NCBI GenBank assembly: GCA_043228905.1
Contig: JBHGNT010000001.1
Span: 24,118,001-24,182,000 of the forward strand
DNA from: Azolla caroliniana
Lineage: Eukaryota > Plantae > Polypodiophyta
Direction of reading: 5' to 3'
Length of the DNA: 64,000 nucleotides
Position numbers and translations under genes: made by a program. Below, piece by piece: positions 5,001 to 63,900 of the stretch. Under the pieces are notes generated by a model. It saw only the letters and a list, made by a program, of their open reading frames with translations. It had not been told where the DNA came from and did not search any database. Every line of letters begins with the position of its first letter. Positions within the stretch are counted from its first letter, which is position 1.

Positions 5001-6423
5001 CCATCAATAGCTTCCACTGGGATTGTCTTGGACAATCGGACAACCAAAAATTGGTGTTTATGAACGAACCTTTCGTCCATAAAACACGTTGTTGCCCCGG
5101 AATTGAGAAGTGCTAAGGACCTAATTGAAATCGACTTGAAATGGATGCTTATTGGAAAGGAGAAATCTTCTGTCTATGTAGTCGAACTATGGGAGTGACA
5201 TGAATGCAGATTGTCCAACCACATGGCTCCTATTGTAGTTGGACACCGTCGTTTTCCGGTTGTTGGGGCCATCTTGTCATATTGTTTGTAGATATTTGTC
5301 GTTGAATATTCTTGATTGGGCAAAAACGAATTAGATGGGTGGATGCACCACAATATAAACATAGTCTGTTGGTTTGGCGATACCTCCGTTCAGCCTCGGT
5401 GAGTGGCGGGGTGCGAGCTCGATCAATTTCCATTGGCACGGGGTCATCGTACGATGACGATGGAGAAGATCTCGAAGAGGGTCGCCACCTTGAAGTTGCT
5501 CATTCCTCTTGACAAAGCTCAAACAACAAATTGCTTGTGTGATGGCTTGCGACAATGACGTAGGCTCCGGAAAGTTGAGTAGTAAATTTTTAATCTCGCT
5601 TCAAAGGCCCCAATGAAAATGGTCGCAGAGCGCTTGGCCATCCCACTGAACATAACATGCTAATTGTCTAAATTCAGATGCATAAACAGATACTGGATGC
5701 ATACCTTGATGTAATGAATAGAGTTTGGTAATGGCAGTTCGGCGTCGGTTCGTATCCCCAAATGTTGCCTCAAACTCTGCCAGAAAGGTAGGAAAATTTT
5801 GTAGAAGTGGTGATGAAGTTTCGACCAACGATGCAAACCAGGCATGTGCAGCTCCTGACAGAAGGGTTCCGATGAGACCAACTTGACGAAAATCATCCAC
5901 ATACCGTTGAGGTTGTAGTTGGATAATAAGCTTGATCTTATCTATGAACCCTCAAAAGTGTAGTGGGATGGCATCGAACTTGTCAGGTAAACTAATCTTG
6001 GGCTCCATACTTGTAGTGGGATGGCAAGGAGTTGGAGAAAGCCTAGATGAGGAACCATGCTATGTAGGTAGGACATTTGTTGATGCAGGAGGAGAGTTGT
6101 TTTTTTCTTCGAGTTCCATTGGTGTTCCAACATGAAGCTTCCGTAACGATTCCCGAAGGTTGTCATTCTCAAGTTGAAGTGGATGCATGGCTTCCATGAG
6201 CTGATTTATTCTCTCGGTAAGATCCAACATGGTGAGGCTTAGAAGATGCACTCTCTAGAAGGTTATTGAAAGTTCTAGTGATCAATCCATAATGAAATAA
6301 GTTGAATCTTATACAATAGAATAATGCATAGATGGATGTAGCTCAACTGGTAAGGTTTCCCAATTAGACTAGAAGGTCATGGGTTCAACCCCCACCATTC
6401 CATGTTGCATCCTGTCTATGACA
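2031..6423 (-). mobile_element. Degenerate Ty3/gypsy chromovirus-like (Tcn1-like) retrotransposon (element B)
   Basis: Fragmented gag (PMEID, CLYCGASTH), protease (ALLNSGAT), RT ([30 protein letters not shown]), RNase H (DASDFAIG) and integrase (GHFGVAKT, GPFRI), with many stops and frameshifts. The 5' terminus TGTCATAG at 6423 abuts copia integrase. Confidence 0.92.
6332..6403 (+). other. tRNA-like Pol III cassette inside the 5' LTR of gypsy element B (antisense to the element)
   Basis: A-box TAGCTCAACTGG 6339-6350. T-arm ATGGG-TTCAACC-CCCAC 6379-6395. Partial acceptor stem (TGGATG/CATTCCA). No intact anticodon arm. Confidence 0.72.
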
Positions 6424-6960
6424 GGTTGTTCGATTCATCCTCTCTGCAAGCCCATTAAACTCAGGGGTCTTAGGCACTAGGTATATTCGAGTCGAATACC
6501 TTGGGACTTGCAATACTCTTTGAACTGACCTCTATACTCGCTAGCATTGGCGGTTTGGACAACCTTCAGCTTCCGACTCGACTCTCTTTCAACTCTGACA
6601 TGGAAGCAAGCCCATTAAACTCAGGGGTCTTAGGCACTAGGTATATTCGAGTCGAATACCTTGGGACTTGCAATACTCTTTGAACTGACCTCTATACTCG
6701 CTAGCATTGGCGGTTTGGACAACCTTCAGCTTCCGACTCGACTCTCTTTCAACTCTGACATGGAAAGCTTTGAAGAACGATAGTACTTTATCCTTCGACT
6801 TTAGTACGAAAGCCGACAACTTTCGACTATAGTTGTCAATGAACGTTACAAAGTATTGTCCGCCATGATGTGATGGAGCATCCACATAGCACACGTCTGT
6901 GTGTACTAGTTTCAATGCAACTTCTCTTCTATTTGGTGGTCTCGAGTGGAATGCAACTTC
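6424..6960 (-). mobile_element. copia integrase fragment (element C), host of gypsy element B
   Basis: LVHTDVC, YFVTFID and PEFNGLAERMNRT motifs on the minus strand. Confidence 0.85.
6446..6765. repeat. Tandem duplication, 2 x 160 bp, in copia integrase
   Basis: 6446-6605 and 6606-6765 look identical (GCAAGCCCATTAAAC...CATGGAA). Confidence 0.93.
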
Positions 6961-7379
6961 TCTTTGGCTTTGTCCGAATCAGCTCTTTTCTTCCAACACT
7001 CGCTTTCTTTGTGGCCCTTCCAGCCACAATACCAACATTCTGTGTCGACTTTTCCTTGTCGACTTCCAGCGCTGCTTTGACTCCCCCTATTTCCGAAGTG
7101 TCCAGAATTGCTGTTGGCACCATCTTTGTGCCTTCGATTTTGCTCTTGTCAGCCGCCTACATTGCGCGTCGATCCGCCTCATCCACGGGGCCTCTCTGCC
7201 TTCGTGGATAGCATCTTGTTGTCGGTGTGTGTGCTTGTCCACACACCCGCGTGGTTCTCCTCTACAAGGAGCATCGATTGTAAGTCGAAAAACGAGGGAA
7301 AATTCTCCCTTGTACATACTGCAATCTGGAATGCTCCGAACTTCGACGCCATGCTCCCGAGATAGACCTACACCATCTT

Positions 7380-13172: not shown

Positions 13173-13439
13173 ACTTTGAAAAGATGAATATGTCGAAGCT
13201 AAATAGATCTTACCGGCTCAGTCATATAGCAACAGAAACCACAGAGAATGGAATACGTAGAGTAGGTGAGAGAGAGACAAAGACAGAGAGAGCAGGACAA
13301 CGAATCTCTATTTCAAAAAGCTTTGTAAAAACTTTGTACATACAAATGTGCATCATAGCACTTTTTATACCATTCCTTAAAAGGATTGACAGAATTACGT
13401 ACAAGTACTTCAATGCGCGTATTGAGCGACAGACACTAA

Positions 13440-24678: not shown

Positions 24679-24963
24679 ATGCCTGCTCAATTCAGACGCT
24701 TCTCCAAAAGGCTAATTCTGTCTGCTTCAGCTCACGGTCTATGGCGCCCAAGGTCTCTCTGCTCTTCCTGTATTGATCTCCCCCCTCTCGAAGCTTCCAC
24801 TCCATCCATCACAGTGTGGGGAGCAAACACAAACGTCGGGAAAACGCTTATCTCTGCAGGTCTCTCCCTATCGCTCCTATCATCTGGATCAAGTGTCTGC
24901 TACATAAAACCTGTTCAGACTGGTTTTCCAAAAGACTCTGATTCAGGTTTCGTCTTTAACAAG
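24679..24963 (+). CDS. BIO3-BIO1: BIO3-BIO1 exon 1 (presequence and DTBS P-loop)
   Basis: MPAQFRRFSKRL...VWGANTNVGKT...KPVQTGFPKDSDSGFVFNK|GT. Confidence 0.88.
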
Positions 24964-27900
24964 GTAATTCATATCATACCTTATGCATTCAGAGAAGAGG
25001 AGAGCGTACGCATCACATTTTGGAATCATTAAATGCAAAAATATAATTTGAATGACCACCAAAGTTCTTCATTTGAATTAAGAAGATTATATGTATATAT
25101 CTCACGTCGTGGAATAATTCCAAAAGAGTATATGTACGCATCACATTGCGTAATTCTAAGTTGAAGAGAGCATGCGTATACACCACTCACCAGTCTAAGA
25201 AGATGAGGAGAGCATGCGTATGCACCATTCACCACTCTCCAATGAAGAGGAGAGCATGTGTATGCACCACTCACCACTCTCTGATGAAGAGGAGAGCATA
25301 TGTATGCACCACTCACCGCTCTCCGATGAAGAGGAGAGCATGCATATGCACCACTCACCGCTCTCCAATGAAGAGGAGAGCATTCGTATGCACTATTCAC
25401 CACTCTGCAATGAAGAGTAGAGCATTCGAATGCACCACTCACCACTCTCAAATGAAGAGGAGAGCATGCATGAGCACCACTCTTAGAAGAAGAGGAGAGC
25501 ATGTATATATCACAATATATACTAGTTCTGAGGCGAAGAGAAGATAACTCGTTCTAAGAAGAAGAGGAGTGTTTATGTATCACATTGTATCCTCACTTTA
25601 TCTGTTATGATTATCACATTGCAAAAGACTCTGATTCTTGTTTCGTCTTTGACAAGGTACGGCATATCCTAATGCATTTAAAAAGCGATTGCAATCGGAG
25701 AGTATATGCGTCACATTGCATCCACAATGTGTCTCCTATGGTTGTCAACTGTCAGGAACATTCAAGGATCCATGGAGAGGTGCCTTTTAGCACTAGGAAG
25801 TTGATTGACATTCGGAATGGTCTCTATAGTTCTGAAAAATGCAAAGTACCTTTCCACATCAAGAATGACTTATATAGTTTTGAAGAAGGCCTTTTTGAAA
25901 GTAATCTTGATGTTCATAATGGGAACTGGTCGACTAGATCGATGCTCAGCCATGAAACTCCTCATGATGCGTCTTCTTGTTTCATATCGAGTACTGAATG
26001 GAGTTGGTTCCGGCCTGTTTCGCCTCATGTGGCAGCGGCTGAGGAAGGGCTTATTGTGGATGATTCTGTCCTTTTAGATAGAGTAGCAAATTCACTGGCA
26101 TGTTTTCAGAAAGGGTGTATTCACTCGGAGCATAGAAGTCAAGGCTTCCCAACATGGGCTATTATTGAAACTGCAGGCGGTATTGCTAGCCCTGGTCCAT
26201 CTGGAACTTTACAATGTGATCTCTACAGGTAGGTAAGATTCTCATTTAAACTCCTCCAATGGAAAACATTAAACCTCTCCCGCTCAAGGTCTTATAATTG
26301 TGTCTTGTGGTTGAGAATTGTATGGATCCTTGTAATTGCGGTCAAGTTATTGGCAATTTATTTTCTAGTTTGCGTGGATCCTTGAAGAGAATGCAATAAG
26401 CAATGTGTTTTGTTCTGAGATATACATGTTATACTTTTTAGACATAGTTTTAACTGAACTTGCAGGCCTTTGAGGTTGCCCGGTATTCTTGTTGGAGATG
26501 GAAAATTAGGTGGCATTTCAAGTACGATTGCGGCATATGAAAGCTTATCAAGTCGTGGCTATGATGTAGATGCAATCATTTTGCTGGACCATCAACTTGG
26601 GAATGAATATCAATTACGAGATTATTTACAACATAGGTTGTACATTGTTTTCTGTTGTCCTTCTAAAGAAACTCATTAGCTAGAAGCTTCATCATTAAAC
26701 CACTAGCTTTGATGTTAACATTGGTCCACCCCAAGCCGTTCGGCTAAAATGAAGTGGAGGTAATGTTTGATATCTTTTATGGAAAGCATAAGATTTCCTT
26801 GTTAACTTAGAACAACATAGAATCCAAAGTGTATTTGCATGCATCACTGCATCACTCTTGAATTATGCTTTGGCCTTTCTAAAGTGGGGGGAATTTCTTT
26901 GGAGCATCTCTAGGGGAATTGAGTTCTATTGCAATGCTCTCATGTTGGTTTGGTGTTATATATTTTGGGTAAAGCTTTGCAATTTGGGTATGAACTTGTG
27001 GATTCAGTAGAACTACCTCGACAATGTTTATAAATGATGTCCTATTGAAGTGAAAATTAGTATTCATCCCTTTTTATTTCTATTTGTTTGCCTTGTTAAG
27101 TTCTACTTGAGGGTTTGTTTTTGATTTAGGTATGGTTTAGAATAAGATTCAGCAGAACTTTGACCTGATCAATTAACTTTCTTAATGAAAAGACTATAGA
27201 TGTGGGAAGGAAGATCCTGGTCTCAGGATATACAGCAGAGGGGACGTGGCCTTTTGTATTGTGCATTGCATATGCATAGCGAGGGCATCCTGCATGGGAG
27301 TCCAATGTCTTTTCTTTAGAGATATTTGGTCTAACAATCGGCAACGGTTCGGTTAAGTTTGAGAGTGTCAAAACCAAACTGTTTAAAAATTTTGAAACTT
27401 GAACTGAACTGAACCGTTAAAAAATTGCAAACCGTTAAACCGTGGTTTCGTGGTTCGGTTTCAGTTTTCAACTAAGGTCAAAATTCAAATTTTAAACTAT
27501 AAAAATTTAAAAAATTTCATTAAATTTCAGAATTTTAAAGATTTTCCTAAAATGTGAGAATAAGGCTTGAAACTGAAAAGATTCTTTAAAATTAATTTTT
27601 TCTTTTACAAAAATAAATAAATAAAAAATAAATCAAAACCGTTCAACCGTTTAAACAGCGGTTTCTAACTGTTGAAACCGAACTGAACTGTTTAAAAAAA
27701 CCTGAACCTGAACCTGAACAGAACTGAACCGATTAAACTGTTAAGCTGCGGTTCGGTTCGGTTCGGTTCAAACCGAACCATTGCCTGCTGTTAATTTGGT
27801 CTACATAAATGACTCAAATCCCTCCTATGGGGTAACCAATTTGATGTGGATGATTGTATGTACTTGGCTACGTTTGCATCTTTGGAGTTGAGCTTTGAGC

Positions 27901-30900
27901 ATTGGCCATGATCCTACTTTTGATAGTAGCTTGGAAGTGGTTGAATCTCTCAACCATTGATTTTGATCATTTATACTGTCCAGTTGGTTTTAAGTGCTAT
28001 CTGTTTGTTAATAGGGCTACATGTGACTTTTTTCTTTATCTGGAAACTCCTCATATCCACTTTTGCTTTGATAAGAAAATTCTCTGATGAAGCCAGATAT
28101 CAAAAGGACATGTTTCATACCTGACTCAGGAACTCAACCTGCAACTTTGCATGCATATATTCTATATATCATTGACTGTGTTCCTTTCTTATGTTTACAG
28201 GCTCCCTGTCCTAGTTCTTCCATCTCTCCCTCATGATGTGAATGATGAACTTATTCAATGGTTTATACAATCTGGCAAAAATTTTTCTCAGCTTCAGCAG
28301 CATTTAGAGGCAACACATACACAAAAGCTAAGTAGATTGCGTGATATGAAAAAGAAAGCAGATCAATTACTTTGGTGGCCTTTCACACAACATTCTCTTG
28401 TTCCTGAAGAGAAGATAACTGTTATTGATGCTCGTGCTGGTGACACATTCACAATTTACAAGGTTTGTATTTCCACTTGATGATAAGGCTGCATTCATGA
28501 AATTTTGAATTTAAAGTAGACTATAATGCTACACTTATGGATTTGTGAATAAGCAGAATATAGTTTTGCAACATCAAATTTTGGAAAAGATAATCTTGTG
28601 CTTGCTGGTCCTATGTATCACAGAATTGATGACAGCAACAGGCATTATCATCATGCACGTCTATTCATGTTGGTACCAGATTGCCCTTCTCCGCTATTAA
28701 GCAGTTCACTAAGTTATCTCCTCTTGGCTATTGTGTTATGTAATATCCTCTCTTTTAGGCCAACTATGGTTGTTTTGAGATAATAAGCTGGCATGTCCCT
28801 TAGTCATTTATTCATGCAAGTTATTGTGGCTATGCTAGTCAACCTCATATCTTCTGCTCACTAACCCGAAACCCTCTTGAAAGAGGATTGTTCTGTTTCT
28901 TGCCTATCCCTTCTTTGTACATGATTGATGGCCGGTAAGCAAACCTTTGAAAGCAGATGGAGAGATGATGTTAGCACCACACATGCAGATCCAACTTAAT
29001 ATTTTCCTTGACTACTCAATATTACATAAACTTTGTATATCTATCCACAGACCCTAAAGATCAGGCCGCCTGGACACGTGGGGCCCTATGATACATTGGC
29101 TTACTATAACACTCATGCATAATCTACTTATAAGGGTTTCTTCAAGGAAGGGTCGTTTATGGAACCGTCAAGTACATTGCTCTCTTGGGCAGGATGGTCT
29201 TGCTGGAAAGTAGTTTAGGATAAATAATAATCAATTGCTAAATATTGAATAATAGGGATACCACATACATGATTTAGGTAATATGATGAATGACTGCTTT
29301 AGACAACTGCTACTAGGAATTCTGCTTTAGACAACTGCATTTTGCTAATTCATTTATTTTGTTCTTTAATCAGGATGTTAGGAATTCTGAAGTCATGATG
29401 CAACAATTTGATGGTTGTGCAAGTTGGTGGACCCAAGGACCAGATATTAAATTACAGGTGATATATGGCTATGCGATTCATGATGTGATAAAACCATTTA
29501 CTTTTCTATTGGGTTTTAGAATTTAAATATGTTTTGTCAAGCCCTCTTATTAATTAAAGTATATTATGCAGTTGGAGATTTCAAGGCAAATTGGCTATGC
29601 TGCTGGAAGGTTTGGACATGTGATGCTTCCTGAAAATGTTTATGAACCTGCACTGCAGTGCGCAGAACTCTTGATTAACCTCATTGGGAAAGGTGAAACC
29701 TACTTTCGTATGTGCTTAAAAGTTTATTTTGCATGTCAAACCAAATTATAAATGATCTTTTAGTGACTAGATGTTGAACTTTGTTCACATGCTCTTAGAA
29801 AGCAAAATACTGCGTCCATATCACTATCTGATGTGTTGCCTCATATTTGTGAATTTATGCATGAATTATGAATAGAGCGTGGGAAAGAGAGAGATTAAAT
29901 TAAAATAGAACATCACAATAAAAATATCCAGTCATTCTACATGTGTACAGGTTGGGCGGACAGGGTATATTATTCAGACAATGGCTCTACAGCTGTTGAG
30001 ATTGCCATAAAGATGGCATTCCGCAAATACCTTCATGATAAAAATCTCCTTGCAATTTGCAACTCTGAGAAGGAATCTCACAACTTGAAGGTACAGTTAT
30101 AATCATACATTGTCAGATTTCAAACCATTTTGCTGCTAATAAGCGTTACTGTATTTTTGATGTTCCTTATTTGTTGTTTTACATTCCTGAGAATACAAGA
30201 ACACATGATTCATAGAAAGGGGAGGGGGTATCTCACCCAAAAACTACGAGAAAGTCCTCTCTCCAATTAGAATGCATGAATCATAGTGTTCCCTATCAAC
30301 TTTTAGGAAAGACTTTCCTAACAGGGTGGCTATGTGCTACCTAAGATATTCTTGTTTTGGGTTTTCAAGATTAGAAAAACAGATATTCCTTAAAAGGGAT
30401 GCACTTTATCAAAAATCTAGGGAAGTACAAATTATATGCACTTCCCGTTGTCATCAGGAGAGAAGTTTGAGACATCTAAAGCTCATCATAAATATGGGAT
30501 GAGAGCTCAGGATAAAGAAAAGGATACTGTCCTTGTCTGTGGTTATTCTTCTAATCTGTTGTCATTCACAATAATTATGATTGCATCATTAATTCATACT
30601 CATATATAAATTTTAAGGATTAGATAGATTTTTACTCCCTCTTGCTACACAAGCAATGGTTAAACTCCCGTGATCATGAGAACATTTTTCCTCTGTACAA
30701 TGTCTTGAGGTGTACTACATACACTCTTCTTGAACAAATTAGAAAGAGTCGATGTACCAGGGGGAGATTCTGAATATGGACTGGTGGGGAAATGACGCCA
30801 CACGTGTACTATTAGCAAATACACACTTGTTTAACAGCCTAGAAAGAGTCGACGTCCCAGGGGAAGCTTCTGGAAATGGACAGATTGAGAAATGTATTAG

Positions 30901-36900: not shown

Positions 36901-37047
36901 CCTTTGGGTAATGTTATTTATCTAATGTGCGGCCCGATGACATCACCTACAAAATGTTCAAAGCTTTTGTGCAAATTATCTCAACAGCTCGATTCATTCA
37001 TGGATAGCAATGGCTTCTCTAAAAGCTGTCCTGTCATGGCTTGCTAG
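24679..37047 (+). CDS. BIO3-BIO1: Bifunctional dethiobiotin synthetase / 7,8-diaminopelargonic acid aminotransferase, 15 exons, about 903 aa, probable mitochondrial presequence
   Basis: Exons 24679-24963, 25657-26228, 26466-26636, 28201-28462, 29374-29457, 29572-29692, 29951-30090, 31296-31390, 31459-31574, 31854-31994, 33580-33713, 34830-34961, 36122-36256, 36325-36437, 36837-37047. All introns are GT-AG with consistent phases, 2712 nt in total. Motifs: P-loop GANTNVGKT, ETAGG, WWPFTQH, ASWWTQG, SDNGSTA, SYHGDTLGA, IFDEV, PLP lysine YSKLLTGG, HGHSY, RPLGNVIY. Confidence 0.95.
25160..25505. repeat. About 42-bp minisatellite (GAAGAGGAGAGCATGCGTATGCACCACTCACCACTCTCCAAT-like), about 8 copies, in intron 1
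   Basis: Direct reading. The 14-aa periodicity in the overlapping ORFs (MHHSPLSNEEESIC) matches. Degenerate copies extend from about 24990 to 25590. Confidence 0.92.
25657..26228 (+). CDS. BIO3-BIO1: BIO3-BIO1 exon 2
   Basis: AG|VRHILM...VSPHVAA...ETAGGIASPGPSGTLQCDLYR. Confidence 0.85.
26466..26636 (+). CDS. BIO3-BIO1: BIO3-BIO1 exon 3
   Basis: PLRLPGILVGDGKLGGISSTIAAYESL. Confidence 0.92.
27332..27793. mobile_element. hAT-type MITE (462 bp) in intron 3
   Basis: Imperfect TIRs TAACAATCGGCAACGGTTCGGTT / AACCGAACCATTGCCTGCTGTTA. 8-bp TSD ATTTGGTC at 27324-27331 and 27794-27801. Subterminal AACCG/CGGTT motifs around an AT-rich core. Confidence 0.9.
28201..28462 (+). CDS. BIO3-BIO1: BIO3-BIO1 exon 4
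   Basis: LPVLVLP...WWPFTQH...FTIYK. Confidence 0.92.
29374..29457 (+). CDS. BIO3-BIO1: BIO3-BIO1 exon 5
   Basis: QQFDGCASWWTQGPD. Confidence 0.9.
29572..29692 (+). CDS. BIO3-BIO1: BIO3-BIO1 exon 6
   Basis: GRFGHVMLPENVYEPAL. Confidence 0.92.
29951..30090 (+). CDS. BIO3-BIO1: BIO3-BIO1 exon 7
   Basis: WADRVYYSDNGSTAVEIAIKMAFRK. Confidence 0.92.
31296..31390 (+). CDS. BIO3-BIO1: BIO3-BIO1 exon 8
   Basis: VIALKGSYHGDTLGA...GFLQQP. Confidence 0.92.
31459..31574 (+). CDS. BIO3-BIO1: BIO3-BIO1 exon 9
   Basis: YKGRGLFLDAP. Confidence 0.9.
31854..31994 (+). CDS. BIO3-BIO1: BIO3-BIO1 exon 10
   Basis: SRDDLFDKQRD...AALIIEP. Confidence 0.88.
33580..33713 (+). CDS. BIO3-BIO1: BIO3-BIO1 exon 11
   Basis: IHGAGGM...IPVIFDEVF. 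Confidence 0.92.
34830..34961 (+). CDS. BIO3-BIO1: BIO3-BIO1 exon 12 (PLP-binding lysine)
   Basis: PDIACYSKLLTGG. Confidence 0.92.
36122..36256 (+). CDS. BIO3-BIO1: BIO3-BIO1 exon 13
   Basis: ALLHGHSYSGHAIGC. Confidence 0.92.
36325..36437 (+). CDS. BIO3-BIO1: BIO3-BIO1 exon 14
   Basis: LWEPK...LGTVFAVEL. Confidence 0.9.
36837..37047 (+). CDS. BIO3-BIO1: BIO3-BIO1 exon 15 (terminal)
   Basis: YAS...GIYNRPLGNVIYLMCGP...TAG. Confidence 0.92.
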
Positions 37048-39245: not shown

Positions 39246-39317
39246 ATCAAAGTGGTGCAATGGAGGCTGAGGGGGCCCATAACCCACAGGTCCCACGATC
39301 GAAACCTGGTTTTGATA
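39246..39317 (+). pseudogene. Degenerate initiator tRNA-Met (CAT) gene copy
   Basis: 72 nt, colinear with plant tRNA-iMet as I recall it (about 12 substitutions). Diagnostic GGGCCCATAACCC anticodon arm and GATCGAAA T-loop. The acceptor stem ATCAAAG/TTTTGAT still pairs, but the D-arm and T-stem are damaged. Upstream CAA present. Confidence 0.85.
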
Positions 39318-39341
39318 TCCAATGGTTTAGGTGTTAGGGTT

Positions 39342-46910: not shown

Positions 46911-47817
46911 GTAAGGAACGATCGCAACAGTGATAGTTGTAGAGGAAATAAGGAAAAATTGCCATGGAGATACTTATAGAGGTAGTAAGAGTGATTGCAT
47001 CGGCTATACTTGCAGAGGTAGACTAGAAATTGAGGCAATGGTGAGCTATTGCAACGCAATACAAACAAAGCCGGTAAGGAGAGATTGCAATAGAAATACT
47101 TGCAAAAGCAGTAAGAGCTATTGCAATAGAAATTCTTGTAGAAGTAGTAAGGCTATTGCCACGATGATAATTGCAGGCACGGAGTACAGACAAAGCTAGT
47201 AATGAGTGATTGCAGTAGGGGTACAAACAAAGCTGGCAAGAAGTGATTGCAGTAACAGTACATGGAGAGGTGGTAAGGAGTGATTCCAACACTAGGACTT
47301 AAAAAGATGGTAAGGAGCATTGACAAGAATATCATCTACAAATGCACAAAGGACTTATCGCAGACTTGGTGTAAGCCGGGGTTCTAGTTTAATTTTTAAA
47401 TGCCACCATTTCTTGACATCACCGCCTCCATCACAAGCCACATCTTGTGAGTCTTTCGTGGTCTTTCTTGCCTTGCTAGTTTGGTTTAAGTTATTAGAGG
47501 AAATCTTACTTTACTCTTTAAACACATACAAATGTTAAACATGAATATAAAAAGATCCTTATTGATTGGGAATCATAAACCTTAACACATAAACCAACTC
47601 ATATCAAAACCAAGTTCGATCTTGGGACCTATGGATTATTGGCCCACCACGTTTCCATTGCGCCACTCTGATCGTTAGTTGAAACTTGCATGGGACATCC
47701 ATATGTAACTAGGATTAATACAATATGAAAAGTGTCACACTTATAAGAATCTACATATGTTTGAAGGGGGGCGGGAAACCATATTTTTGTTATAGAATCT
47801 AATAGAACTTCAAGGAC

Positions 47818-48715: not shown

Positions 48716-49638
48716 TGTCGTGAAGATTCCGGGCCATGGTGAGAAACCGGGGAATATCAGAAGAATCGGCGGGGTGGAGCATGTGCATTGACCCTTGTAC
48801 AAATGGTGTAGGGGATAAGGGTGCCTTTATGGCGCCAAGTAGGAGTTAAGTCGGGACAGAGAATCCCATGTAAATCGGGATTTATCCCACATTGTAACGC
48901 ATCCCTCTCCTTGTTCTATAAAAGGAAGGGAGGGTCCCTTGTAGAGGGGTTGCCCATTTTGAGTTAGGAGGGTACACCGTTAGATTTAGGGTTTGGTAGT
49001 TCTTGGTCTTCATCTTTCTCCTATTCCCGTAGGGTTTGTACTTTGGTTTTTTCACCCTATTTCGTTTAGGGTTTCATCTTGACAACTTTCTTCTTCTTCT
49101 TCTTACTTTCTTGTTTTCGGTTAGGGTTCTTTGACTTCTTCTTCTCCTTCGTGTCTATTTAGGGTTTAGTCTGGTGAAGAGCTTGTATGTTCAGTGGGGT
49201 TTGCTTTTGCTCGGTCTCCTGTGCAAGACCCCGCTCAGCGCGACGAGCCTGAGAGCTCCCCGATCGGCGGCTTGGCAGTATAACCTAACCTACCTTGGTC
49301 CGGCTCAAATCCAGAGTTGTATCTTGCTCTTGTAATTATATATATAAAAGGTTGTGCATATTTGTGTTTCTGTTGGTGTCGGGTGCATTGCTTTCCCTTT
49401 GTTTCCTGTACATAAGAGGCGTGTGTTGAGTCAGTGTTGCGCGCGTGGTCTCTCTCTCTCTCTCTCTCCCTCTCTCATGTTCGGTAGCCACCAGTACGCA
49501 TCCGGAATTGCACCAGTTTTCGCCACAACCAGTGCAGCCGAGACCGGAGAGAGTCAGCTTCTCGACATCCATCTCTTCCTCGTTCGAGATCCTTGGGGTT
49601 CCGCCCCTTTGGACACGTACCTGCGGAAAACCGCGACA
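48716..49638 (+). mobile_element. Solo LTR (TGTCG...CGACA) with a 4-bp TSD ACGT
   Basis: TATA-like CTATAAAAGG at about 48917. The TSD at 48712-48715 and 49639-49642 is consistent with the empty-site paralog at about 47400-47500. Confidence 0.8.
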
Positions 49639-49911
49639 ACGTGTTGTGAATCTTTTGTGGGTTTGATTTGCCTTGTTAGTTTGGGTTTAAGTTATTAAGC
49701 AAAATTTTACTTTCATGGAACGAAGAAACACAGATGTTGCACTCATACTTACACATCTTGTCCATCCATATACTCGGTTACTACATGTGACACTTTATAG
49801 ATTTCATGCCTATCATATCAAATGGTATGCCTATTAGTTCACCAAAGTTCCTTCTCGATTCAGAATCCTAAAACCTAACACCTAAACCAACTATTATCAG
49901 AACTAGTTTTT

Positions 49912-53777: not shown

Positions 53778-55045
53778 TGTTGAGAATCAAATTGTTGATC
53801 CACAAGAACGGATACACTGAAATACACAACTCAGAAATGCAAGAAAACTATGCACACAGATTTAACGTGGAAACCCTAAAATGGGAGAAAAAACCACGGG
53901 AACAGAGCTTCATTATACAACGGATATACAGTAAAGAAGATTACAACACTCTATGTGTGGAGTATATCAGCCTCATAGGCTCTTGGCGTATGCTGTTACA
54001 AACACGGCTATGGTGCCACTCATTCTCACCTCTCACACCCTCACTCTCTGTCACACTTATCTGTTTGCCTTAGGTGTATTTATACTAATACACAGTATGG
54101 GCTATTTACAAACATGACCATTATTATTATCTAATAATAATAATAGTCTTACTAATTAGCCCACTCATCTGTCAACTGTTGGGCCGATTCGACTAGTCGG
54201 CTTGGTCATCGACAATCTAGTCAACGCGACTAGCAAGTTGTGTCTGTGACCTTGATCACTTCTTCTCGACTCTCCTAGTCGACTCCTTATGTCAATTCTT
54301 CGACTATTTGCCCTCTGGCCAATTAGTCAGATACTCCTTGTCTTCAACTGTTGGCTCTTCTCGACCCGAATTGTCGGCTCCTCATCTTCGATTCCTCCTT
54401 ATGTCAAGTCTTCGACTGTATGCCCTTTGGCCAATTAGTCGGATACTCCTTGTCTTCGACTGTTGGCTCTTCTCGACCCGAACAATCAGCTCCTCCCACT
54501 AGAGGGACATATTCCCAACAAACTCCCCCTTCACTCCTATGGGAGGGAATCGGTCAGTCTTGTCGTCTGTCGACAAATTCTGAGTGTGTCCATTGGTAGG
54601 TTCTTCATGAGCATGTCGGATCCATTGTCGTCAGTATGAATCTTCATGAAGGTAAACTCTCCTTCATCCACCTTCTCCCGCAACTAGTGGTACCTCCTCT
54701 GTATATGCTTTCTTGGCTAGATGTATGGCTCTTTTGCTGTCACAATGAAGCAAGTACTCCCTTTGCATCATTCCCAACTCACTAAGAAAATTTCTCATCC
54801 AAATAAGCTAATTTCCGGCCTCTACCGTTGCCATATACTCCGCCTTTGTAGTTGACAAGGCTACAGATTTCCGTAGTCGTGACTACCACGACATTGTTCC
54901 CCCTGCATACATCATCACGTAACCTGATGTGGATCGACTTGAGTCTACATCCTCTGACATGTCTGAGTCGGTAAACCCTTCGAGCATAGGTTTCCTAACA
55001 CCATACCTAAGGCATACTCTCGAGGTGCCTTTCAAGTACCCTGCA
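53778..55045 (-). mobile_element. copia element M (K family): 3' LTR 53778-54520 with an internal duplication of about 112 bp, PPT and RNase H fragment
   Basis: The LTR start TGTTGGGAATATGTCCCTCTAGTGGGAGGAGCTGA matches 49912. Confidence 0.87.
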
Positions 55046-58000
55046 GTAAGAAAACCCCACAATTCTCGTTTAACTTGTGCATAATTTCTTTGTCTGTCAT
55101 TTAATTATCTTTGCTCCAAATCTGATAGCATATCGATGTTGGTCTTCATCTTATTGGTTGATAACCCAACCAATCCCAATTGGGCTAGTATCAACTGTCA
55201 CTATAATTGGTCTTTCACCTTTGTAGTCTGGTTGACGAAGAACTGGAGCTTTCAATAATGCTTCTTTCAATTGTTGCACAACTTGTGTATGTTCATCAGT
55301 CCAAATAAACTTCTTCCCTTTTTATAAAATTTGGTAGAGAGAATCTGATACATGTGGAAAGCGTGGTCACCAAATATGATAAAACACACATGCACCTAAA
55401 AATCTTCTCACCTCTGTTACCGATTAGCAAACCTCCTTCATATTTTGTATTGCGTTAATTTTGATCGGTGAAGGATTCCTCCCATACCAGCCACACATAT
55501 GACCAACTATCAGAACTTCGTTTTGCCCAAAGCTTGACTTTGTTCCTGATAGTGTCAAATGTACTTGCTTAAGCTTATTTATAATACTTTCACAATCATT
55601 AATGTGATCCATCACAAACTTTCTGCAACCATTTCCAACCATAGTCTCATCTTTCTCTCTTTCTAAGCATCCTTTAACAGTAATATCATCTAAAAATGGC
55701 ATAGTTACCTTTGGGATGTATTAATGTAGAAGTTTGTTCATTGCATTCATCATATGAGTAATTGAATTTGTCGCACCTTGAGGTAGGGTGCACTTTCGAA
55801 CCAACCCAATTGGTGTTTTCATTGTTGTGATATTGCGACTATCAATTGCTAGTTGAAATTGGTCGTATCTTGAGTATAGGTCTCCCACAGAGTAAATTGC
55901 TCTCCCAGCAAAAGCTTCCGTAAATTCATCAATGATCGGCTTGATTCCTGCATTTCGGATTTTGACTTTGTTGACTAGTTGTAAATCTTGAATGAATCTT
56001 AGAGAACCATCTTTCTTTGGAACTGTGAACCATCTATTGGAGTATGGTGCATTTGAAGGCTCTAAAATCTTAATCTTGTCAACTTTATCCTTTAGCAGCT
56101 CCAACAATTGAGGTAATCGAGCTCTCGGTACTGCAATAGGTTTAAAATTCCAAGGAATATGAGGGATAGTAAATATTACCATTGGTGTCACCACCTTTGG
56201 ATCTACACAACCAATCTCCTCAAGTTTGATTGCGAACGCTTTCCCATGCCTAAAGATCATTTCATTGAAAGTCGCGATCTCTGATTGTAGAAGAAATTCA
56301 CCCCCTCCGATTCTCAAGTTATTTATTGTCTCCGAAGTGAACTGATGTCCGATCTTCTCTTAGATTGGTCGAAGCATAGACTCGGTTGCTGCTGTCTCCA
56401 TCTTCTCTTCACTACTAATAGGTAATGGTACTGCAACAAGTTTGACCTTTTTATCTATTGTTTTGTATTTTGTATTACATAAACTTTTTGCTTCTTCATA
56501 TTTACAATTATGCCTATCAATCTCATAATACATATCAATTGAGTTTACATGTATCTTTCTAACACTCTCATCATCTTCTTTCAAATACATTTCTAACTCT
56601 TCTATAGTATTTGCAAAAGAAATTTCTTCCATAACACTTTCAATGTGCTCTTCCATTTGAAGTACTCCATTATCCTTCAATGCATGTTGAAACAAATTAG
56701 CATTCTTTTTCAAGTTCATCTTGAATTCATACATCCTAGTCACACATATAGCTCCACTTTCAGAAACATGAAATGACTTATTCATATGTTGTAATGCCTT
56801 ACGTGAGGGTCTTTTAATAATGGGACTATTGCAACCAATAGTCCTAGTCAAAAACCTGATTATCAAAATCATGACATTCTTTTGGTATCAAATGATCACG
56901 AATCTCTTGCTTGTTCCTCTCATGATTTGGGTGAACTGTCATAAACTGTATAGTTCATCGTCCATCTTGGCTACGGATTTTTGCATAAGCAGAACCATTG
57001 TTGAGAACTTTGGTCTCTATCCGTACTGCTGTGATGTATGGTTGCCCCAAGATTATCGGATAGGTAGATCCTTCCTGCACAAATAAATCTTCAGTGATTG
57101 ATGTGGCCGCTTTTACGCGCCAACCATGCTAAGTATCAATTGGCCATCTACCTTTCCTGTAAAAATCAACACTCGTTATATTTATTTCAGAACCATGATC
57201 AATAAGTGCCATCACCGGGAATCTTCACATGATGCTTAGTAGTGGCTCTTGCCCAACATTTGTGAGAGTAGTGGCTTTTTGTATCTGTTGAACTTATCAT
57301 TGAGGTTGATGCATGTTGAGAGTCAACAATGATATTGTTCGACTCGTTGCTCACCACTTCATATGCCACCTTCGGATTTGTATCTTTCACCTGCTCATTT
57401 ACTTGCTTCTTTCTTCGCACAATATAAATTATTTCATCATGAAATTCCCTTTCTGCAATACCTAACACTTCTCTTAGTGTAAATTCTACACGACTATCTA
57501 GTATTCTTGTTTCTAAAGTTTTCTTTAAATCTGTATCCTTTTCAATATCAAACATTAATTTGAATGAAGGACCAGATTCACCTTTTTCGACTTTTGCATC
57601 CATCTCTTTTCTTTTGCTTTCTCTTGTTTCATGTTTGTTTGTCGAACCAATCTCATCATCCGGCCTTTTCCTTTTTCTTCCACTATCACCTCATGATCTT
57701 AGTGTTCTGCCATCTAAGCATAGACTATCATAGCACTACCAGAACATCCCATCCAATATTTCTCCTTACAAAATCTCCGGCAACACGAAGGTCTTCCATC
57801 TTCATCTTTTGCTTTTGTGCGAAACTTACAACCTTGTCCCAGAATGATGATCGACATGGCGTGTCATCAAGCACATGTTCACCATAAGGTATCTACAATA
57901 TCAATATGCATATTTTACTCTTGTAAAAACAGAGATTTTAGTACAATTCGAGTTCATGTAAACCCTAAACCTCTTTTATTTGAAAAGAAAGAAGATTTCT

Positions 58001-59586
58001 AAACATGAACTCCATACATTGTATCGAGTTGATGTAAAAAACAAAGTTTTCATCACAATTCCATACAATGTATCAAGTTGATGTTTAAAGTTTTTTCTTT
58101 AAAAATATCTCAGATTGAAGGCTAACAAGATTTAGTGCACATAGTTTGGAGACACCATTTGGTGAAGACAATGATTCGATTGGTACATTTGAAAATGAGG
58201 AGGAAGAGTCACAAATGTATATTAGCTATAGTTGTGATTCTCATGAAAGGAATGATGATAGTGATGCAAAAACTCCTAAATGTATTTTTTGAGCAACAAT
58301 ATGTAACAAATTTAGACAACATTTTATCGAATGAAATAAAAAAGTTGATTGTTTTGAAATCTTTCGCGTATGATTTCGTTAGGATCTAAAATACTACTAG
58401 TTGTAATTTTTCCTTAAAAATACACAAAGTTACTTTTTGTATTTGGCCAAAATTTGACATTTTTCAATTTTACCAAATGGTGAAAGTTTTAGCTTTTTCA
58501 TCAAGTTTTCGAGAACATGTGATACTGGTATCAAGGTGTTTTGTGAAATGGCTGAAAAAGCCACAAAATCAAACAGAATATTGCTTATCCTTCCATTTGT
58601 GCGCAATCCCTCCACTTGTGAACACGAACGTGTTTTGACATCATTCACACCAGACATTTCCATTTCATCATAATATATATTGACATACTTTGAAATATTT
58701 ATGCCATCAAACACACCAATCTTCTCTCAAACTTTTCGTAAGGCATGAAATAATTGATCTTCATTCAATTTTTTAATAAACAACCTTACCGGATCCATTG
58801 TACTCGTACTTGCCATGTTGATGTTGATCTTTACTTTAGATGTCTCTTCTACTTCCCCGTTGTCGTGAAGATGTGCGTGCGTGTGTTGCTCAAACGGGAC
58901 CACCGGGGTCTCTGACCAGGGAGGACGTTTACCAAGTTATCGAGAAACAATGTTACCCTTGACAAGATCAAAAGATTGATGATTATAAGAAGTACAATAA
59001 GAAGTATCAAAGATGAACAATAGAAGTATAATTATAAGAAGAATTTTATATTGATGATAATGATGACGATGGTGATTATCACCTATTGAGCCCCCCCCCT
59101 TTACACAAGCCGTACTAGGGGTTTTATAGGTTTGTCCATGCACAAAACCATGGGCTTGGAGCCATGGTTTCTTTGCACACAGTTTTGCTTTGTGACATGC
59201 AGAAAACCATGGGCTTGGAGCCATGGTTTCTTTGCACACAGTTTTGCTTTGTGACATGCAGAAAACCATGGGCTTAAAACCGTGGTTTTGTGTACACAGT
59301 TTTGTACATTTGTTTCCTACGGAATACTGAATATGAGAAAGAAATATAGAACATTTGAAGCACTTAGTAGTAGCTTTAATGGTAAGGTAATTGCCTCTTA
59401 TCTTAAAGGTGCAAGGTTCAAATCCTACTTGCAACCCTCTACATGCACTAAATGCCGTTGTGACGTAGGTTTATTTATTACTGATTTATTTTCATTTTTA
59501 CAAGTACTCGTGAAATGTGTGTGGATCCTCATTTTTTGACTTTTTCTCGCATTAAACACGCCACATCACGACAACGTTTCACGACA
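55046..59586 (-). mobile_element. Degenerate Ty3/gypsy element N: 5' LTR about 58938-59586, putative PBS TGGTAAACG, gag, PR, RT, partial RNase H
   Basis: RT motifs LEPSNAPYSNRWFTVPKKDGSLRFIQDL, LPQGATNS, PFLDDI. Protease ALIDHGSEIN. RNase H VTVDTSP. Confidence 0.88.
59364..59437 (+). other. tRNA-like Pol III cassette in the LTR of element N (antisense)
   Basis: A-box TAGCTTTAATGG 59371-59382 and B-box GGTTCAAATCC 59415-59425, with T8-to-T54 spacing of 46 nt. Confidence 0.72.
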
Positions 59587-60064
59587 GGTTCACCAAATTG
59601 TGTCGTGGCATGGCTCGCTCAGAAATGATTGTTGCACAAACAGAAGATAACATGAAAGTGAGGAGGGAATCGCCGGGATTATGGATGGAAGAGACGAAGG
59701 AGTAGAGATGGAGTAAGTAGAGATCAACAAGATATGACAAGATGGGATGTAAAATGATAATTGAGGGAATGTAAGAAATTCATAATTATTTGATGAAAGA
59801 GTTACGAGCGTCATTGAACCTTTGCACTTTGCCTCACAAGGTAATCGTTTTTCACTTTCTTGATAGTAGACCAAGATCCTCCCTTCTATCTTCCGATGAA
59901 CATAAGACTCGAACCTCCGCCCTTTCGTTGTGAGTTGAGCACCACCACCACCAAGTTAGAGCGTCTCTTGTATATTAAAGATTATTTATTACCTTCCTCT
60001 TCTTCTCTTCCTTTTTCTCTCTTATGATGGTTTTTACATTATAATTTTCTATTAATCCGATACA

Positions 60065-60591
60065 TGTTGGGAAATCGGTCCCTCCGGATGGGATCCGGTC
60101 ATGAATGGAGAGGACCCGGTGAGAACCGGAAGAGAAGACATAATTGTAAATATGTTTGGAGTAAGCCTATTGAGGCTATATTTGTAAATATCCCTAAGTT
60201 CATATCAATATAAATATGACTTAGGGCAATCACTTTATGTGTGTGAGAGAGTGTCGTAGTCATATTGTTGTTGAGATAACTGTTGTATATATATAGAGAG
60301 AGATACAGAGCGATACTCTGTTGTAACCGCCGGTTGGCGAAGATATAGAGCTCGAGGTCGTTGCCTCGAAGTCTCTGTTTTGTACCTTTCCTATATAATG
60401 ATAGTTTGGAGTCCGTGGGCTCCCATGGTTTTTCCCTATTAGGGTTTTTTCCACGTAAACACTCTGTGTATACTCTATTGTTCTTTGTGTGTGTGCAGTC
60501 ACTCCCTACTTCCCGTTTCTGTGTTTTGATTTCCATCCAAGTGATTCAAGACTCGACTGTGGCCGAGCAATATTCCACTATTTTCTTCACA
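60065..60591 (+). mobile_element. copia solo LTR (element D-like family)
   Basis: TGTTGGGAAATCGGTCCC...CACA with near-TSD ATACA/GTACA; homologous to 12306-12833. Confidence 0.87.
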
Positions 60592-60749
60592 GTACAATAT
60601 AATTCTATACCCATCTTTGTGACTACACCCCCTTCTCTTTTTATAGCAAAGGGTAGTCTTGCATGTGGGCCATGTAGGGATAGTCTTCCATGTGGCCCAC
60701 ATGCACAAAGGCTCTTGCATGTGTACTATATTATTATAATGTATGTATC

Positions 60750-60822
60750 ATGAATGTTTGCTAACGGTAAGATGTGAGGCTCATAATGTGGAGGTTATTA
60801 GTTCAAGTCCTCTATTGTCCTT
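60750..60822 (+). other. tRNA-like cassette in LTR P (antisense)
   Basis: CTAACGGTAAG, CTCATAA loop, GGAGGTT, GTTCAAGTCC, with G18-to-T54 spacing of 36 nt. Confidence 0.6.
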
Positions 60823-60985
60823 ATAATACAATGGTGTACTTTATTCACCTCTATATATAATGTATAATACTATTATAGTGTTTTTTTAATATAATATTTA
60901 TGTATAAAATAGTATCAAAATTCTTTTTAGTTATGTATTTATCTTATTGTAGACTTTTAATGCGAAGCTTTCCTACTTCACGACA

Positions 60986-63900
60986 ACGGGTACTTTGGTG
61001 GAAAAGATTGGATACGATACATTGAAGCTTACAAAATAGAAATGCTTAAAAGGGTATTTTCTATGGCAAGGCAACTTTCAAGTTTCGCAAGGGTTGGGAG
61101 TTCAAGCCTTTACACTTGAATCCTAGACGTGAAAGTTGAAGGAAGTTTACTCGAAGAATATAGATTTGATGACTCATCCAGGATGAGACAAAGAAGGATT
61201 TAATGGACTGGGTGGAGTCTGCAAACAAAAGGTTGAGTGCAAGTGCAACGCTTCATGAATTCGAGCAAAGGTTTGGTCGTCTACCTACACTTGACCAGAG
61301 AACTCTTGAATCCAGCAAGGTTTGTTTGTTCTTAAACGCAATAGACATAAAAGAATAGAGAGACCTTGAACTGCTATTGGAAAATGAGGAGTAATGAAGA
61401 CATGGAACCCCCTAAAAACCAACTTTGTTCAAGGAGTAATGAAGGATTTGTTAGGGGGTTTGGAGGAAGAAATGTGGGTAACACTACTCCTCATCTACTG
61501 GGATCTGAGTAAAGCATAAAACAAAAACCCAAGGACCACAAATAGGGGAGTTTTGGCCAACCATTCTTGCTCAAGTTGAAAAAGGGAAACTCCAGACGAA
61601 CAAGGCTTATGTAGTCGATCAAAGAATACAGCCAATGACAGGTTAGGAGGACCCTGTGGAAGAAAAGACTAGCTTTGTGGAGGTCGTGTGCTAAAACCAT
61701 TAGGTTCTTGTTGAAGAAATAAGTAAAAGAGTAGACGTACAAGGGGCTCCTTCAAAGAAACATGACTCAAGAGAAGTCGTTCGAAGAAGGGAGGAGTTGT
61801 CATCACCCCAAATGATGACCAAAAAAGGGAAGGAAAGAATCAAACCGGCAATAAAATTGCGGTCAAAGATAGAACAAACTACCAACGTCAAGCGTCTGAT
61901 GGAAGACAGGATTCTGGACAGTCAAGTAGAATTTACATTGAGAGAAATTCTTGGAATAACAAAGAAAGAATTACATGATGCCATCATAGATTTAATGAAG
62001 TGAAAACGACAATCTGTTACTGAAGAAGGACCGAGATCAATGAATGTTTTGACGAATGCTATCACAATGGAAGGGCTAGACATTGAGAAATAATATGCTG
62101 ATAGCCACTTCTCAAGACCTCATTGGGCTAGAGCCACTACCAAGACACCAGTCAAGATTGGTGACTTGAAGGATCCAGTGGTGGTGCTAATTGACCATGG
62201 TTCAGAGGTTAATCTTATGTCCCTTGACTTCTACTGAAAGGGATGATGGCCAATCAATACTAGGCATGGGTGGAAGATCCGAGCAACCAGGATTACGGAA
62301 GAGCTTCATGGGGCTGGCCCTAATGTGAAGGTGGTGATAGGCGATGTTGAACTAGACCAACACTTCTTCATGCAAGAGTCAGCATCTCCCTCCGTCATTC
62401 TTTAGGAACCCTATATCACAGCGGCTCGAATGGAGACGAAGGTGCTTCACAATTGTTTGGCATATGTTCAAGTACGAAGTCAAGATGGGTTGAACTCAGT
62501 CCAGTTTCTCACAATGAGGCCAAACCATGAGCGTTATAGAGATAGTCTAGAAAGAGGATCTAGAGAGGACTTTTAGTTCGGAATATTAGGGAGAGGGACA
62601 ATAATAGTCTGAAGCATCTACCTTTGTCCCCAAAGTGATGTAATAAAAGTTTTTCATCTCATTAATAAAAAGAATGTTATGTTTTCTGAAAATTGGATGT
62701 GCAAGTTAAAACTATAAAAAAAGATGTAAAGATAAAGAGTTTTGAAAAACAATTGAAAGAAAATGGGATTATTATGGAAGAATATGAGAAAATAATCGGA
62801 TCTATGGAGGTAATTTCTTTCGACGAAACTCTTGGGAAAATGGAGAGAGTCATTGACTCAAACCTACATGGGAATAAAGTGATTCCGACTATATACGTTG
62901 CCATTGACGAGTATGAGCAAGGTGTTGCGGCAAATAAGGTTGAAGTGAATACTAAGTATGTCAAGATTGTTGACAAGAAAGTGAAGCCTGTTGTTGCCCT
63001 CCCTGCCTAAAGACAATTGGCAGCGGATGAAGGAGGTGGTGACCAATTTGTCTCTTAGAGACCCGAGAGGGATAGGACACACCTTCACTGATGAAACCTT
63101 AATGAAGCTCAAGATCAGTGGGGGTGAGTTCCTACTTCTCGAAGAGGAGTAAAAATTCAAGGAAATGTTGGGGTGACATGGAAAATCCTTTGCTTTTTCC
63201 TTGCTAGAGATAGGATGTGTGGACCCGATAGGATTTGTGGACCCTACACTCGTGGAGCCGATGATTATTTTCACATACCTCGTCTTCCATGGAGCTTGAA
63301 ACCGATTCCGGTTCCCAGAGCATATATCTGTCACGGACACACCAACGCTAGATTATGACAAAGCACAGATGACAAGGCTATGACTGATAAGGTTACGAAT
63401 GTGGAACTCGACGTGATGAGGCTAGAAACTCAGGAGGTTGGGAGCGATGAGATGAGGAACTTAAAGACAAATACAAGAACATAAAGACAAAGATGTAAAT
63501 CAAGGAGAGAAGATGGGGCTAAACAAGAATACTAGATTGATGTGTCAATGACTGGTGTTGAATCCCTTGAAAGAGACTAGAATGGTTACAAGTTGAAGTA
63601 CATGCATTAGAATATTCTTGAACCTTCTAGAACCTTGGAACTTTCTAGAACTTTCTAGATGTCTAGAGAGTATACCTAGATCACGTACATCTTATACAAT
63701 AATGCTTATATCAAGATGGTTGAGCATAATGTATTGTTGATGTGAGGTTGCAAATTCAATCCTCATCAACTATATATTTTATGTTATTGTATTGTGACAA
63801 TATCCCAAAATTATTAGAATTATTGAAAGAGAAAGTCAGGGTGGGAATCCTAGAACCATCTAGTGCACCTTATTCAAATAGGCGGTTCACAATGCCGAAG

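What the first reader, a model, noticed from the sequence alone, without database searches (positions are those of the whole stretch)
6332..63799. Recurrent tRNA-derived Pol III cassettes, antisense in the U3 of four gypsy LTRs
Seen: tRNA-like segments at 6332-6403 (element B 5' LTR), 59364-59437 (N LTR), 60750-60822 (LTR P) and about 63700-63770 (solo LTR, most decayed). Each has a D-loop-like GGT(A/T), an AGGT variable-loop-like motif and a TTCAA T-loop, with G18-to-T54 distances of 35, 36, 36 and 37 nt. All lie on the strand opposite the LTR and near its 5' end. T54 is 39 and 44 nt from the terminus in the TGTCA-type LTRs and about 170-180 nt in the TGTCGTG-type LTRs. Known precedent: small-RNA-derived LTRs in non-autonomous TRIMs (Cassandra, 5S; Helenus, tRNA-like). 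Inference: here two different gypsy lineages that carry gag-pol have the cassette, pointing outward. Conserved placement argues against random SINE insertion. It could serve as a TFIIIC-bound insulator against silencing, an outward Pol III promoter, or a source of small RNA.
Basis: partly seen in the sequence, partly recalled or inferred. Interest (0 to 1): 0.82.

Follow-up and report, generated by a model that had tools for sequence, protein, structure and literature searches.

The report
Backward tRNA promoter inside retrotransposon LTRs
Two unrelated groups of jumping genes in a plant, likely a fern, carry a backward-facing remnant of a tRNA gene near the outer edge of their end repeats, and in one group its promoter letters are kept across very distant relatives, which likely means it is a working landing site for the tRNA-gene transcription factor, although no function has been tested.

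Summary
The four segments exist, antisense in U3 of Tcn1-type (B, solo) and Phygy-type (N, P) gypsy LTRs of a probable fern. B and N are the best A/B-box matches in 870 kb. P and the solo copy are weak: they hold up only through position, and a blind profile misses them. None is a tRNA gene.

Contigs of other copies, from three organisms, carry B's cassette at the same distance from the LTR end. The two closest outside Tcn1 relatives that have LTR sequence both carry it, one with an uninterrupted 1198-aa pol. Their pol silent sites are near saturation (32-39% identical), yet 12-14 of 15 motif bases match pairwise while stems decay. That points to selection on promoter bases, not on a fold.

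Corrections: N is a solo LTR inserted at P's primer site, and a third Phygy LTR and Selaginella Tcn1 lack the cassette.

Likeliest role: a TFIIIC site bounding the LTR's Pol II promoter (untested). Rivals are an outward Pol III transcript or a tRNA-docking site on the genomic RNA. It differs from Helenus (sense, non-autonomous). The scan's earlier notes hold other tRNA mimics, not this one.

The parts
6332..6403 (+). tRNA-like cassette of element B (A box ~6339-6351, AGGTC 6374-6378, B box 6382-6392, T54 = 6384), antisense to the LTR
6242..6423 (-). U3 remnant of the 5' LTR of Tcn1-type element B; R, U5 and primer site missing in this copy
   Evidence: (loose ends at 6242/6246)
2030..6241 (-). 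broken gag-pol of element B (gag, RT, RNase H, integrase, SH3), cut off by a copia LTR at ~2030
58861..59573 (-). N: Phygy-type solo LTR with NCGN flanks, inserted behind the primer site of element P
   Evidence: (joint 58857->59575)
59364..59437 (+). tRNA-like cassette of N (T54 = 59417), antisense; first T4 run 72 nt after T54, inside the LTR
59578..59595 (-). primer-binding site of element P (tRNA-Trp type; isotype recalled, fits the Phygy rule)
59601..60985 (-). P: 5' LTR of a Phygy-type element, interrupted by a copia solo LTR at 60065-60591
60749..60822 (+). weak tRNA-like cassette of P (T54 = 60802), antisense, A box decayed
55030..58860 (-). broken gag-pol of element P (DUF4100 gag, RT), 89% identical to the 1152-aa pol P0241
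63329..63799 (-). Tcn1-type solo LTR with 5-bp target duplication ATATC; same LTR 3' end as the B family
63702..63774 (+). most decayed cassette (T54 = 63755), supported by register with B, L012 and L001
63609..63655 (-). array of 7 heat-shock-element-like units directly inside the cassette in the solo LTR
   Evidence: 0 of 500 shuffles reach 7
48716..49638 (+). Q: Phygy-type solo LTR (target duplication ACGT) without a cassette; negative control

Best explanation
These LTRs carry an inherited, backward-facing remnant of a tRNA gene whose promoter bases are kept while its stems decay, and it likely works on DNA as a binding site for the Pol III factor TFIIIC that would shield the LTR's own Pol II promoter at the element's outer edge. 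SHOWN: the sequence, its antisense U3 position, its presence in many family copies and in two distant Tcn1 relatives (one with uninterrupted pol), and retention of motif bases. INFERRED: origin by capture of a tRNA gene or tRNA-derived SINE, probably separately in Tcn1 and Phygy; copying into both LTRs by normal reverse transcription; purifying selection. UNTESTED: TFIIIC binding, and the boundary role next to the heat-shock-like enhancer and TATA box. The element's own RNA would still be made by Pol II. Odds: real inherited cassette 0.93; selected motif bases in the Tcn1 group 0.8; DNA-level TFIIIC site 0.6; boundary as its main use 0.4.
For: B and N rank 1 and 2 of 1.73 million positions. 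The six cassettes are the six best scores among 38 LTR starts tested on both strands (17.8-39.4; the other 32 reach at most 17.0). 16 of 32 listed contig pieces span LTR end and cassette in B's family, in organisms A, B and C; N-family contigs with 20-28 differences bridge the cassette to its flanks. L001 and L012 were picked by protein similarity alone, and 2 of 2 close relatives with LTR sequence have it. Four-fold sites in pol are 39% (B/L001), 32% (B/L012) and 34% (L001/L012) identical. Among the four Tcn1 copies 12-14 of 15 motif bases match pairwise, against 13-14 of 50 other cassette columns (31 of 50 for B/L012); T stems keep only 2-4 of 5 pairs. Family variants at >=30% miss the B box, and the one A-box site listed is private to the window copy. 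A CAA lies just upstream in B, L012 and solo, like the plant tRNA-gene start motif (PMC3082873, passages). tRNA-gene insulation depends on TFIIIC in yeast (PMC4370569, passages).
Against: No binding, chromatin or transcript data. The 5' half of the A box is decayed in P, solo and L001 (A scores 2.4-5.1). P, solo and L001 are not recovered blind. AGGT at tRNA positions 44-47 is kept in 6 of 6 but is not part of the canonical boxes (recalled), so TFIIIC does not explain it. The cassette is dispensable: absent from Phygy LTR Q, from SM-Tcn1 (read by eye) and from 21 more distant chromovirus LTRs, and single contigs lack its A-box half (table 5). Six of 64 control strand tests also beat all 40 shuffles. 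TFIIIC insulation is cited from yeast, not from plants.
Confidence: 0.42

Rival explanations
1. RNA-level tRNA docking site: because the cassette is antisense, the 3' end of the genomic RNA carries its complement, which would pair with the D, variable and T loops of host tRNAs or tRNA fragments, aiding packaging or strand transfer as in the Ty3 bipartite primer site.
For: It explains the antisense orientation and the U3 position directly. Ty3's primer tRNA pairs with U3 through its T and D arms (PMC5371799, passages). A tRNA-Lys3-like sequence in HIV-1 U3-R promotes strand transfer (title and one sentence seen in PMC6468702; original not held). It would also explain the kept AGGT. Earlier notes report other tRNA mimics in retrotransposons of this genome (unchecked).
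Against: The Tcn1 group appears to self-prime: in L012, 11 nt behind the LTR pair with the R region with one mismatch, and most Tcn1 lack a tRNA primer site (PMC6317226). Positions 49-52, between the kept blocks, differ in all six copies, so no long helix with one tRNA is conserved.
Confidence: 0.2
2. Outward Pol III promoter whose transcript matters: from the 3' LTR it would run antisense over the purine tract into the integrase/chromodomain end (Tcn1), or end at a T run inside the LTR (Phygy), giving a self-limiting antisense or small RNA.
For: No run of four T inside any cassette. In N and P the first T run lies 72 and 79 nt after T54, inside the LTR; in B, L012 and L001 it lies beyond the LTR edge. 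Upstream CAA in the Tcn1 copies. Cassandra is transcribed from its LTR 5S promoter (PMC10886601).
Against: A boxes are weak in three of six copies; no conserved RNA fold (folding z from -3.1 to +1.1, structures unlike each other); termination differs between the two lineages.
Confidence: 0.2
3. Neutral relic: a SINE head or tRNA pseudogene landed in ancestral LTRs and is copied passively; weaker copies are partly pattern-matching in AT-rich DNA.
For: Free tRNA-like repeats exist in this window (47602-47672 and 39247-39318) and in L004 outside any LTR. 17 contigs match from 6330 on with unrelated upstream sequence, and summed depth peaks on the A-box half. Several related LTRs lack the cassette.
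Against: Motif bases stay while silent sites in pol and the other cassette columns are near random. I saw no A-rich tail after any cassette (downstream letters). The distance to the LTR end is fixed at 36-44 nt in four Tcn1 families.
Confidence: 0.13

Closest known systems
Helenus / TRIMp3 (Kojima 2024, PMC10886601; parts 1-5 of 6 of the text and supplement passages read)
   Same: [quoted passage not shown]
   Different: Helenus is non-autonomous (311-1263 bp), and the cassette is in sense in the four Helenus LTRs shown, presumed to make the template RNA. Here it is antisense, near the U3 edge, in LTRs that keep a TATA box and are linked to gag-pol. The paper expects autonomous partners to use Pol II and not to share such LTR sequence. 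It notes that 'not a few LTRs' in Repbase resemble tRNA but analysed only TRIMs.
Cassandra and Ajax (5S-derived LTRs; as described in PMC10886601)
   Same: Small-RNA-gene promoter inherited inside LTRs over long times.
   Different: 5S (type 1) promoter, non-autonomous; for Cassandra the promoter makes the element's own RNA.
Tcn1 chromoviruses (PMC2864245 passages and supplement S3; PMC6317226 passages)
   Same: B, solo, L001 and L012: chromodomain in relatives, 5-bp target duplication, no tRNA primer site, fungal Tf2-like neighbours.
   Different: No tRNA-like U3 segment in the passages read; SM-Tcn1's LTR has none by eye. PMC2864245 did not recover Tcn1 from ferns by PCR.
Phygy non-chromoviruses (PMC6317226 passages and supplement row)
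   Same: 4-bp NCGN target, tRNA-Trp-type primer site, no chromodomain family among the listed relatives.
   Different: Defined there from Physcomitrella only; no LTR cassette in the passages read; here 2 of 3 window LTRs have one.
Ty3 bipartite primer site (PMC5371799, passages) and HIV-1 U3-R tRNA-Lys3-like sequence (cited in PMC6468702; original not seen)
   Same: Autonomous element with tRNA-complementary sequence in U3 of the genomic RNA.
   Different: Those match the element's own primer tRNA; here only short motifs shared by many tRNAs are kept, and one lineage appears to use no tRNA primer.
TFIIIC-dependent tRNA-gene insulators and extra-TFIIIC sites of yeast (PMC4370569, passages)
   Same: Box sequences acting on DNA without a functional tRNA product (proposed here).
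   Different: Host chromosomal sites; here carried by a mobile element; binding not tested.

Membership tests
Helenus (TRIMp3) | tRNA-like sequence with A and B boxes inside the LTR | tested here: met
   (clear for B, N, L012; weak for P, solo, L001)
Helenus (TRIMp3) | short non-autonomous element without coding capacity | tested here: not met
   B and P are linked to gag-pol; L001 has a 1198-aa pol frame. N's internal part is unknown.
Helenus (TRIMp3) | cassette in sense, able to make the template RNA | tested here: not met
   antisense in 6 of 6; sense in the Helenus LTRs seen
tRNA gene | cloverleaf passing ARAGORN or the Rfam gathering score | tested here: not met
   T stems 2-4 of 5 pairs
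stand-alone SINE insertion | own tail and insertion site independent of the LTR | tested here: not met
   no tail seen; fixed place in family copies; short old target duplications were not searched for
type 2 Pol III promoter | B box core G53 T54 T55 C56 R57 A58 C61 and G18 G19 at tRNA spacing | tested here: met
   14-15 of 15 motif bases in each of six copies, spacing 35-37; consensus recalled
type 2 Pol III promoter | TFIIIC binding or Pol III transcription | not testable with these tools
   only contigs were available, no raw or stranded RNA reads
Tcn1 chromovirus (B, solo) | chromodomain pol, no tRNA primer site, self-priming match, 5-bp duplication | tested here: met
   PF00385 in close relatives; 11-nt match in L012; ATATC. 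B's own chromodomain is cut off.
Tcn1 chromovirus (B, solo) | placement in the Tcn1 clade on an RT-RH-INT tree with reference elements | not tested
   reference proteins were not available as tool sequences
Phygy (N, P, Q) | 4-bp NCGN target and tRNA-Trp primer site | tested here: met
   flanks CCGT/ACGT (N), ACGT/ACGT (Q), ACGG (P); primer site (isotype recalled); rule
Phygy (N, P, Q) | placement in the Phygy clade on a tree | not tested
   named relatives are Riccia and Adiantum proteins at 65-70%; no tree built

The most novel reading that the evidence does not exclude
Protein-coding Ty3/gypsy retrotransposons of non-seed plants have, at least twice, domesticated an outward-facing tRNA-gene promoter in U3 and use it as a portable TFIIIC boundary that keeps their stress-responsive Pol II promoter open inside heterochromatin.
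Probability: 0.3. Interest if true: 0.82.

Novelty: new variant of a known kind. Interest (0 to 1): 0.62.

Why it matters
Small-RNA-derived LTRs are described for gene-less TRIMs, where the Pol III promoter is thought to make the element's own RNA. A backward cassette under selection in protein-coding elements cannot do that job, so it implies another use of the Pol III machinery by retrotransposons: a self-carried chromatin boundary, an antisense regulator or a tRNA dock. It would give a many-copy test of whether TFIIIC sites insulate in plants. It would also mean that many weak tRNA-pseudogene or SINE calls in fern genomes are LTR parts.

Tried and rejected
No whole genome is held, so no genome-wide copy survey was possible.

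ARAGORN and Rfam do not call the cassettes tRNAs. Folding gives no common cloverleaf.

Protein and pattern scans of viral contigs and genome contigs found nothing. The single metagenome scan went to Tcn1, so no outside Phygy LTR was seen.

No RNA holder listed. One guessed-RNA contig run barely touched the LTRs. Neither says anything about expression. Summed contig depth was not used as copy number.

Pairwise local alignment of whole LTRs is weak (B/solo z 2.9; N/P z 0.2). So B-solo kinship rests on the shared LTR end and the four-way alignment, and N and P are not shown to be homologous outside termini and cassette.

Rejected: N as the 5' LTR of the gag-pol beside it; P as a + strand LTR of the gag at 61000 (the gag frame resumes mid-gene after an NCGN site, and the TATA box is on the - strand); a W-box reading of the kept bases (the TGAC core, recalled, is only in B).

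Ten paper searches listed no paper that, by title or abstract start, describes an antisense tRNA cassette in autonomous plant LTRs. Subscription journals and Repbase entries were not searchable, and the .DOC supplements of PMC2864245 could not be read. PMC9317671 (one passage) was irrelevant.
Full report
Setting. The window is a nest of copia and gypsy elements around a BIO3-BIO1 gene whose best named relatives are ferns. No whole genome is held. Evidence beyond the window comes from contigs of public runs and 79 metagenome loci.

The segments. None is a tRNA gene. ARAGORN finds 0. Rfam gives B 15.3 bits and nothing for N, P or solo, and folds differ. On a hand-made A/B-box matrix (consensus recalled), B and N rank 1 and 2 of 1,732,576 positions; P ranks 63 and solo 449. 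Shuffled windows yield 3.3 sites at P's level and 21 at solo's. Leave-one-out profiles recover B, L012 and N but not P, solo or L001. So two window copies are solid alone and two depend on position.

Anatomy, corrected. The solo LTR is 63329-63799 with duplication ATATC. B's LTR starts at 6423 on the minus strand and joins gag after about 180 bp. Loose ends show that other copies have an LTR 3' end identical to the solo LTR's end, so B and solo are one lineage. Relatives carry a chromodomain. In L012 the sequence behind the LTR pairs over 11 nt (one mismatch) with the R region, as expected for self-priming Tcn1 (PMC6317226, passages). N is a solo LTR, 58861-59573, with NCGN flanks; contigs in three DNA runs skip it. 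It sits behind the primer site of P, whose LTR is 60985->59601 with a nested copia LTR and whose broken gag-pol follows at 58815->55030. NCGN targets and a tRNA-Trp primer define Phygy (supplement row; isotype of the site recalled). T54 is 39, 44, 156 and 183 nt from the LTR end.

Part of the LTR, not a stray SINE. Of 32 listed contig pieces on B, 16 run from the LTR end (6421-6426) across the whole cassette. They have 8-25 differences and come from organisms A, B and C; X1 may be the source sample, and some pieces may be one locus seen in several runs. For N, contigs with 20-28 differences bridge the cassette to its flanks, one up to the LTR end. Against this: 17 contigs match only from 6330 on with unrelated upstream letters, summed depth peaks on the A-box half, and single contigs skip that half. 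A similar segment lies outside an LTR in L004.

Outside relatives. Of the five closest loci (L001-L004, L012), two hold LTR sequence and both have the antisense cassette, T54 36 and 37 nt from the end. L012 shows purine tract, whole LTR, then gag. L001 has an uninterrupted 1198-aa pol followed by purine tract and LTR. I scored the first 280 nt of 38 LTR starts: 15 from the window, some placed only roughly, and 23 of the 79 loci (the list of LTR pairs was cut). The six cassettes scored 17.8-39.4 and the other 32 at most 17.0; six of 64 control strand tests also beat all 40 shuffles. Phygy LTR Q (48716-49638) and Selaginella SM-Tcn1 (read by eye) lack the cassette.

Selection. Four-fold degenerate sites in pol are 39%, 32% and 34% identical for B/L001, B/L012 and L001/L012. 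Each of the six cassettes keeps 14-15 of 15 motif bases. Pairwise, 12-14 of 15 match, against 10-22 of 50 other columns (31 of 50 for B/L012). T stems keep 2-4 of 5 pairs. The anchors were chosen by best score, which inflates the Fisher values, but the fixed distance to the LTR end limits that freedom (slot chance 1e-4 to 1e-3 for L001 and L012). In B's family, variants at 30% or more fall in the flanks, the anticodon region and the 3' end, none in the B box; that contrast alone is small. Selection is therefore inferred for the Tcn1 group. For Phygy it rests on N versus P only.

Mechanism. Bases kept without stems fit recognition of DNA. The kept set holds the B-box core and G18 G19 (recalled), and a CAA precedes the Tcn1 cassettes as in plant tRNA genes (PMC3082873, passages). 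A backward promoter cannot make the template RNA, and the LTRs keep TATA boxes; two have heat-shock-like arrays directly inside the cassette. I therefore favour a TFIIIC site at the element's edge that protects the Pol II promoter, by analogy with yeast tRNA-gene insulators (PMC4370569, passages), at 0.42. An outward transcript (0.2) fits the lack of T runs in the cassettes. A tRNA dock on the genomic RNA (0.2) has precedent in Ty3 (PMC5371799, passages) and HIV-1 (secondary passage) and would explain AGGT, but Tcn1 appears to self-prime and positions 49-52 vary. A neutral relic gets 0.13. No function was tested.

Comparison. Helenus has tRNA-like LTRs but is non-autonomous and in sense (PMC10886601), so this fails two defining features while resembling it in origin. 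Ten paper searches listed no description of this arrangement; Repbase and subscription journals were out of reach. Earlier scan notes concern a different tRNA mimic replacing the purine tract in this genome and Helenus-type or fungal cases elsewhere; sequence look-ups found no relevant match.

Verdict. A real, inherited and probably selected feature; a new variant of small-RNA-derived LTRs; function open. Interest 0.62.

Noticed in passing
window 47602-47672 (-) and 39247-39318 (+): Two copies of an initiator-tRNA-like repeat (isotype recalled), 81% alike over 115 nt including flanks; the first scores 39 bits on RF00005, the best tRNA match in the window. Probably a separate SINE-like family.
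   Followed up: partly
window 59893-59966 (-): A second tRNA-like segment inside LTR P, in sense and downstream of its TATA box (matrix score 18.2); a contig of another copy covers it.
   Followed up: partly
window 63609-63655; L001 ~4270-4340: Arrays of heat-shock-element-like units (7 and 6; 0 of 500 shuffles) between cassette and TATA region in two Tcn1 LTRs; absent in L012 and N.
   Followed up: partly
window ~24700-37000 (+): Intron-rich BIO3-BIO1 (dethiobiotin synthetase / DAPA aminotransferase) gene; best named relatives are Adiantum and Ceratopteris.
   Followed up: partly
window 6242-6246: B's LTR is joined directly to gag; loose ends suggest the break lies at an inverted repeat in the family's U3.
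   Followed up: partly
window 6446-6765: Perfect 160-bp tandem duplication in the copia integrase next to B's insertion; recent duplication or assembly artefact.
   Followed up: no
L004 77-142 (+): tRNA-like segment resembling the cassettes (E 0.001) in AT-rich DNA abutting a truncated gag, with no LTR end seen; a candidate free form.
   Followed up: partly
window, elements B and P: Tcn1-type and Phygy-type elements in a probable fern; the papers read list them only from mosses and club-mosses. L004 is 88% identical to B at DNA level.
   Followed up: no
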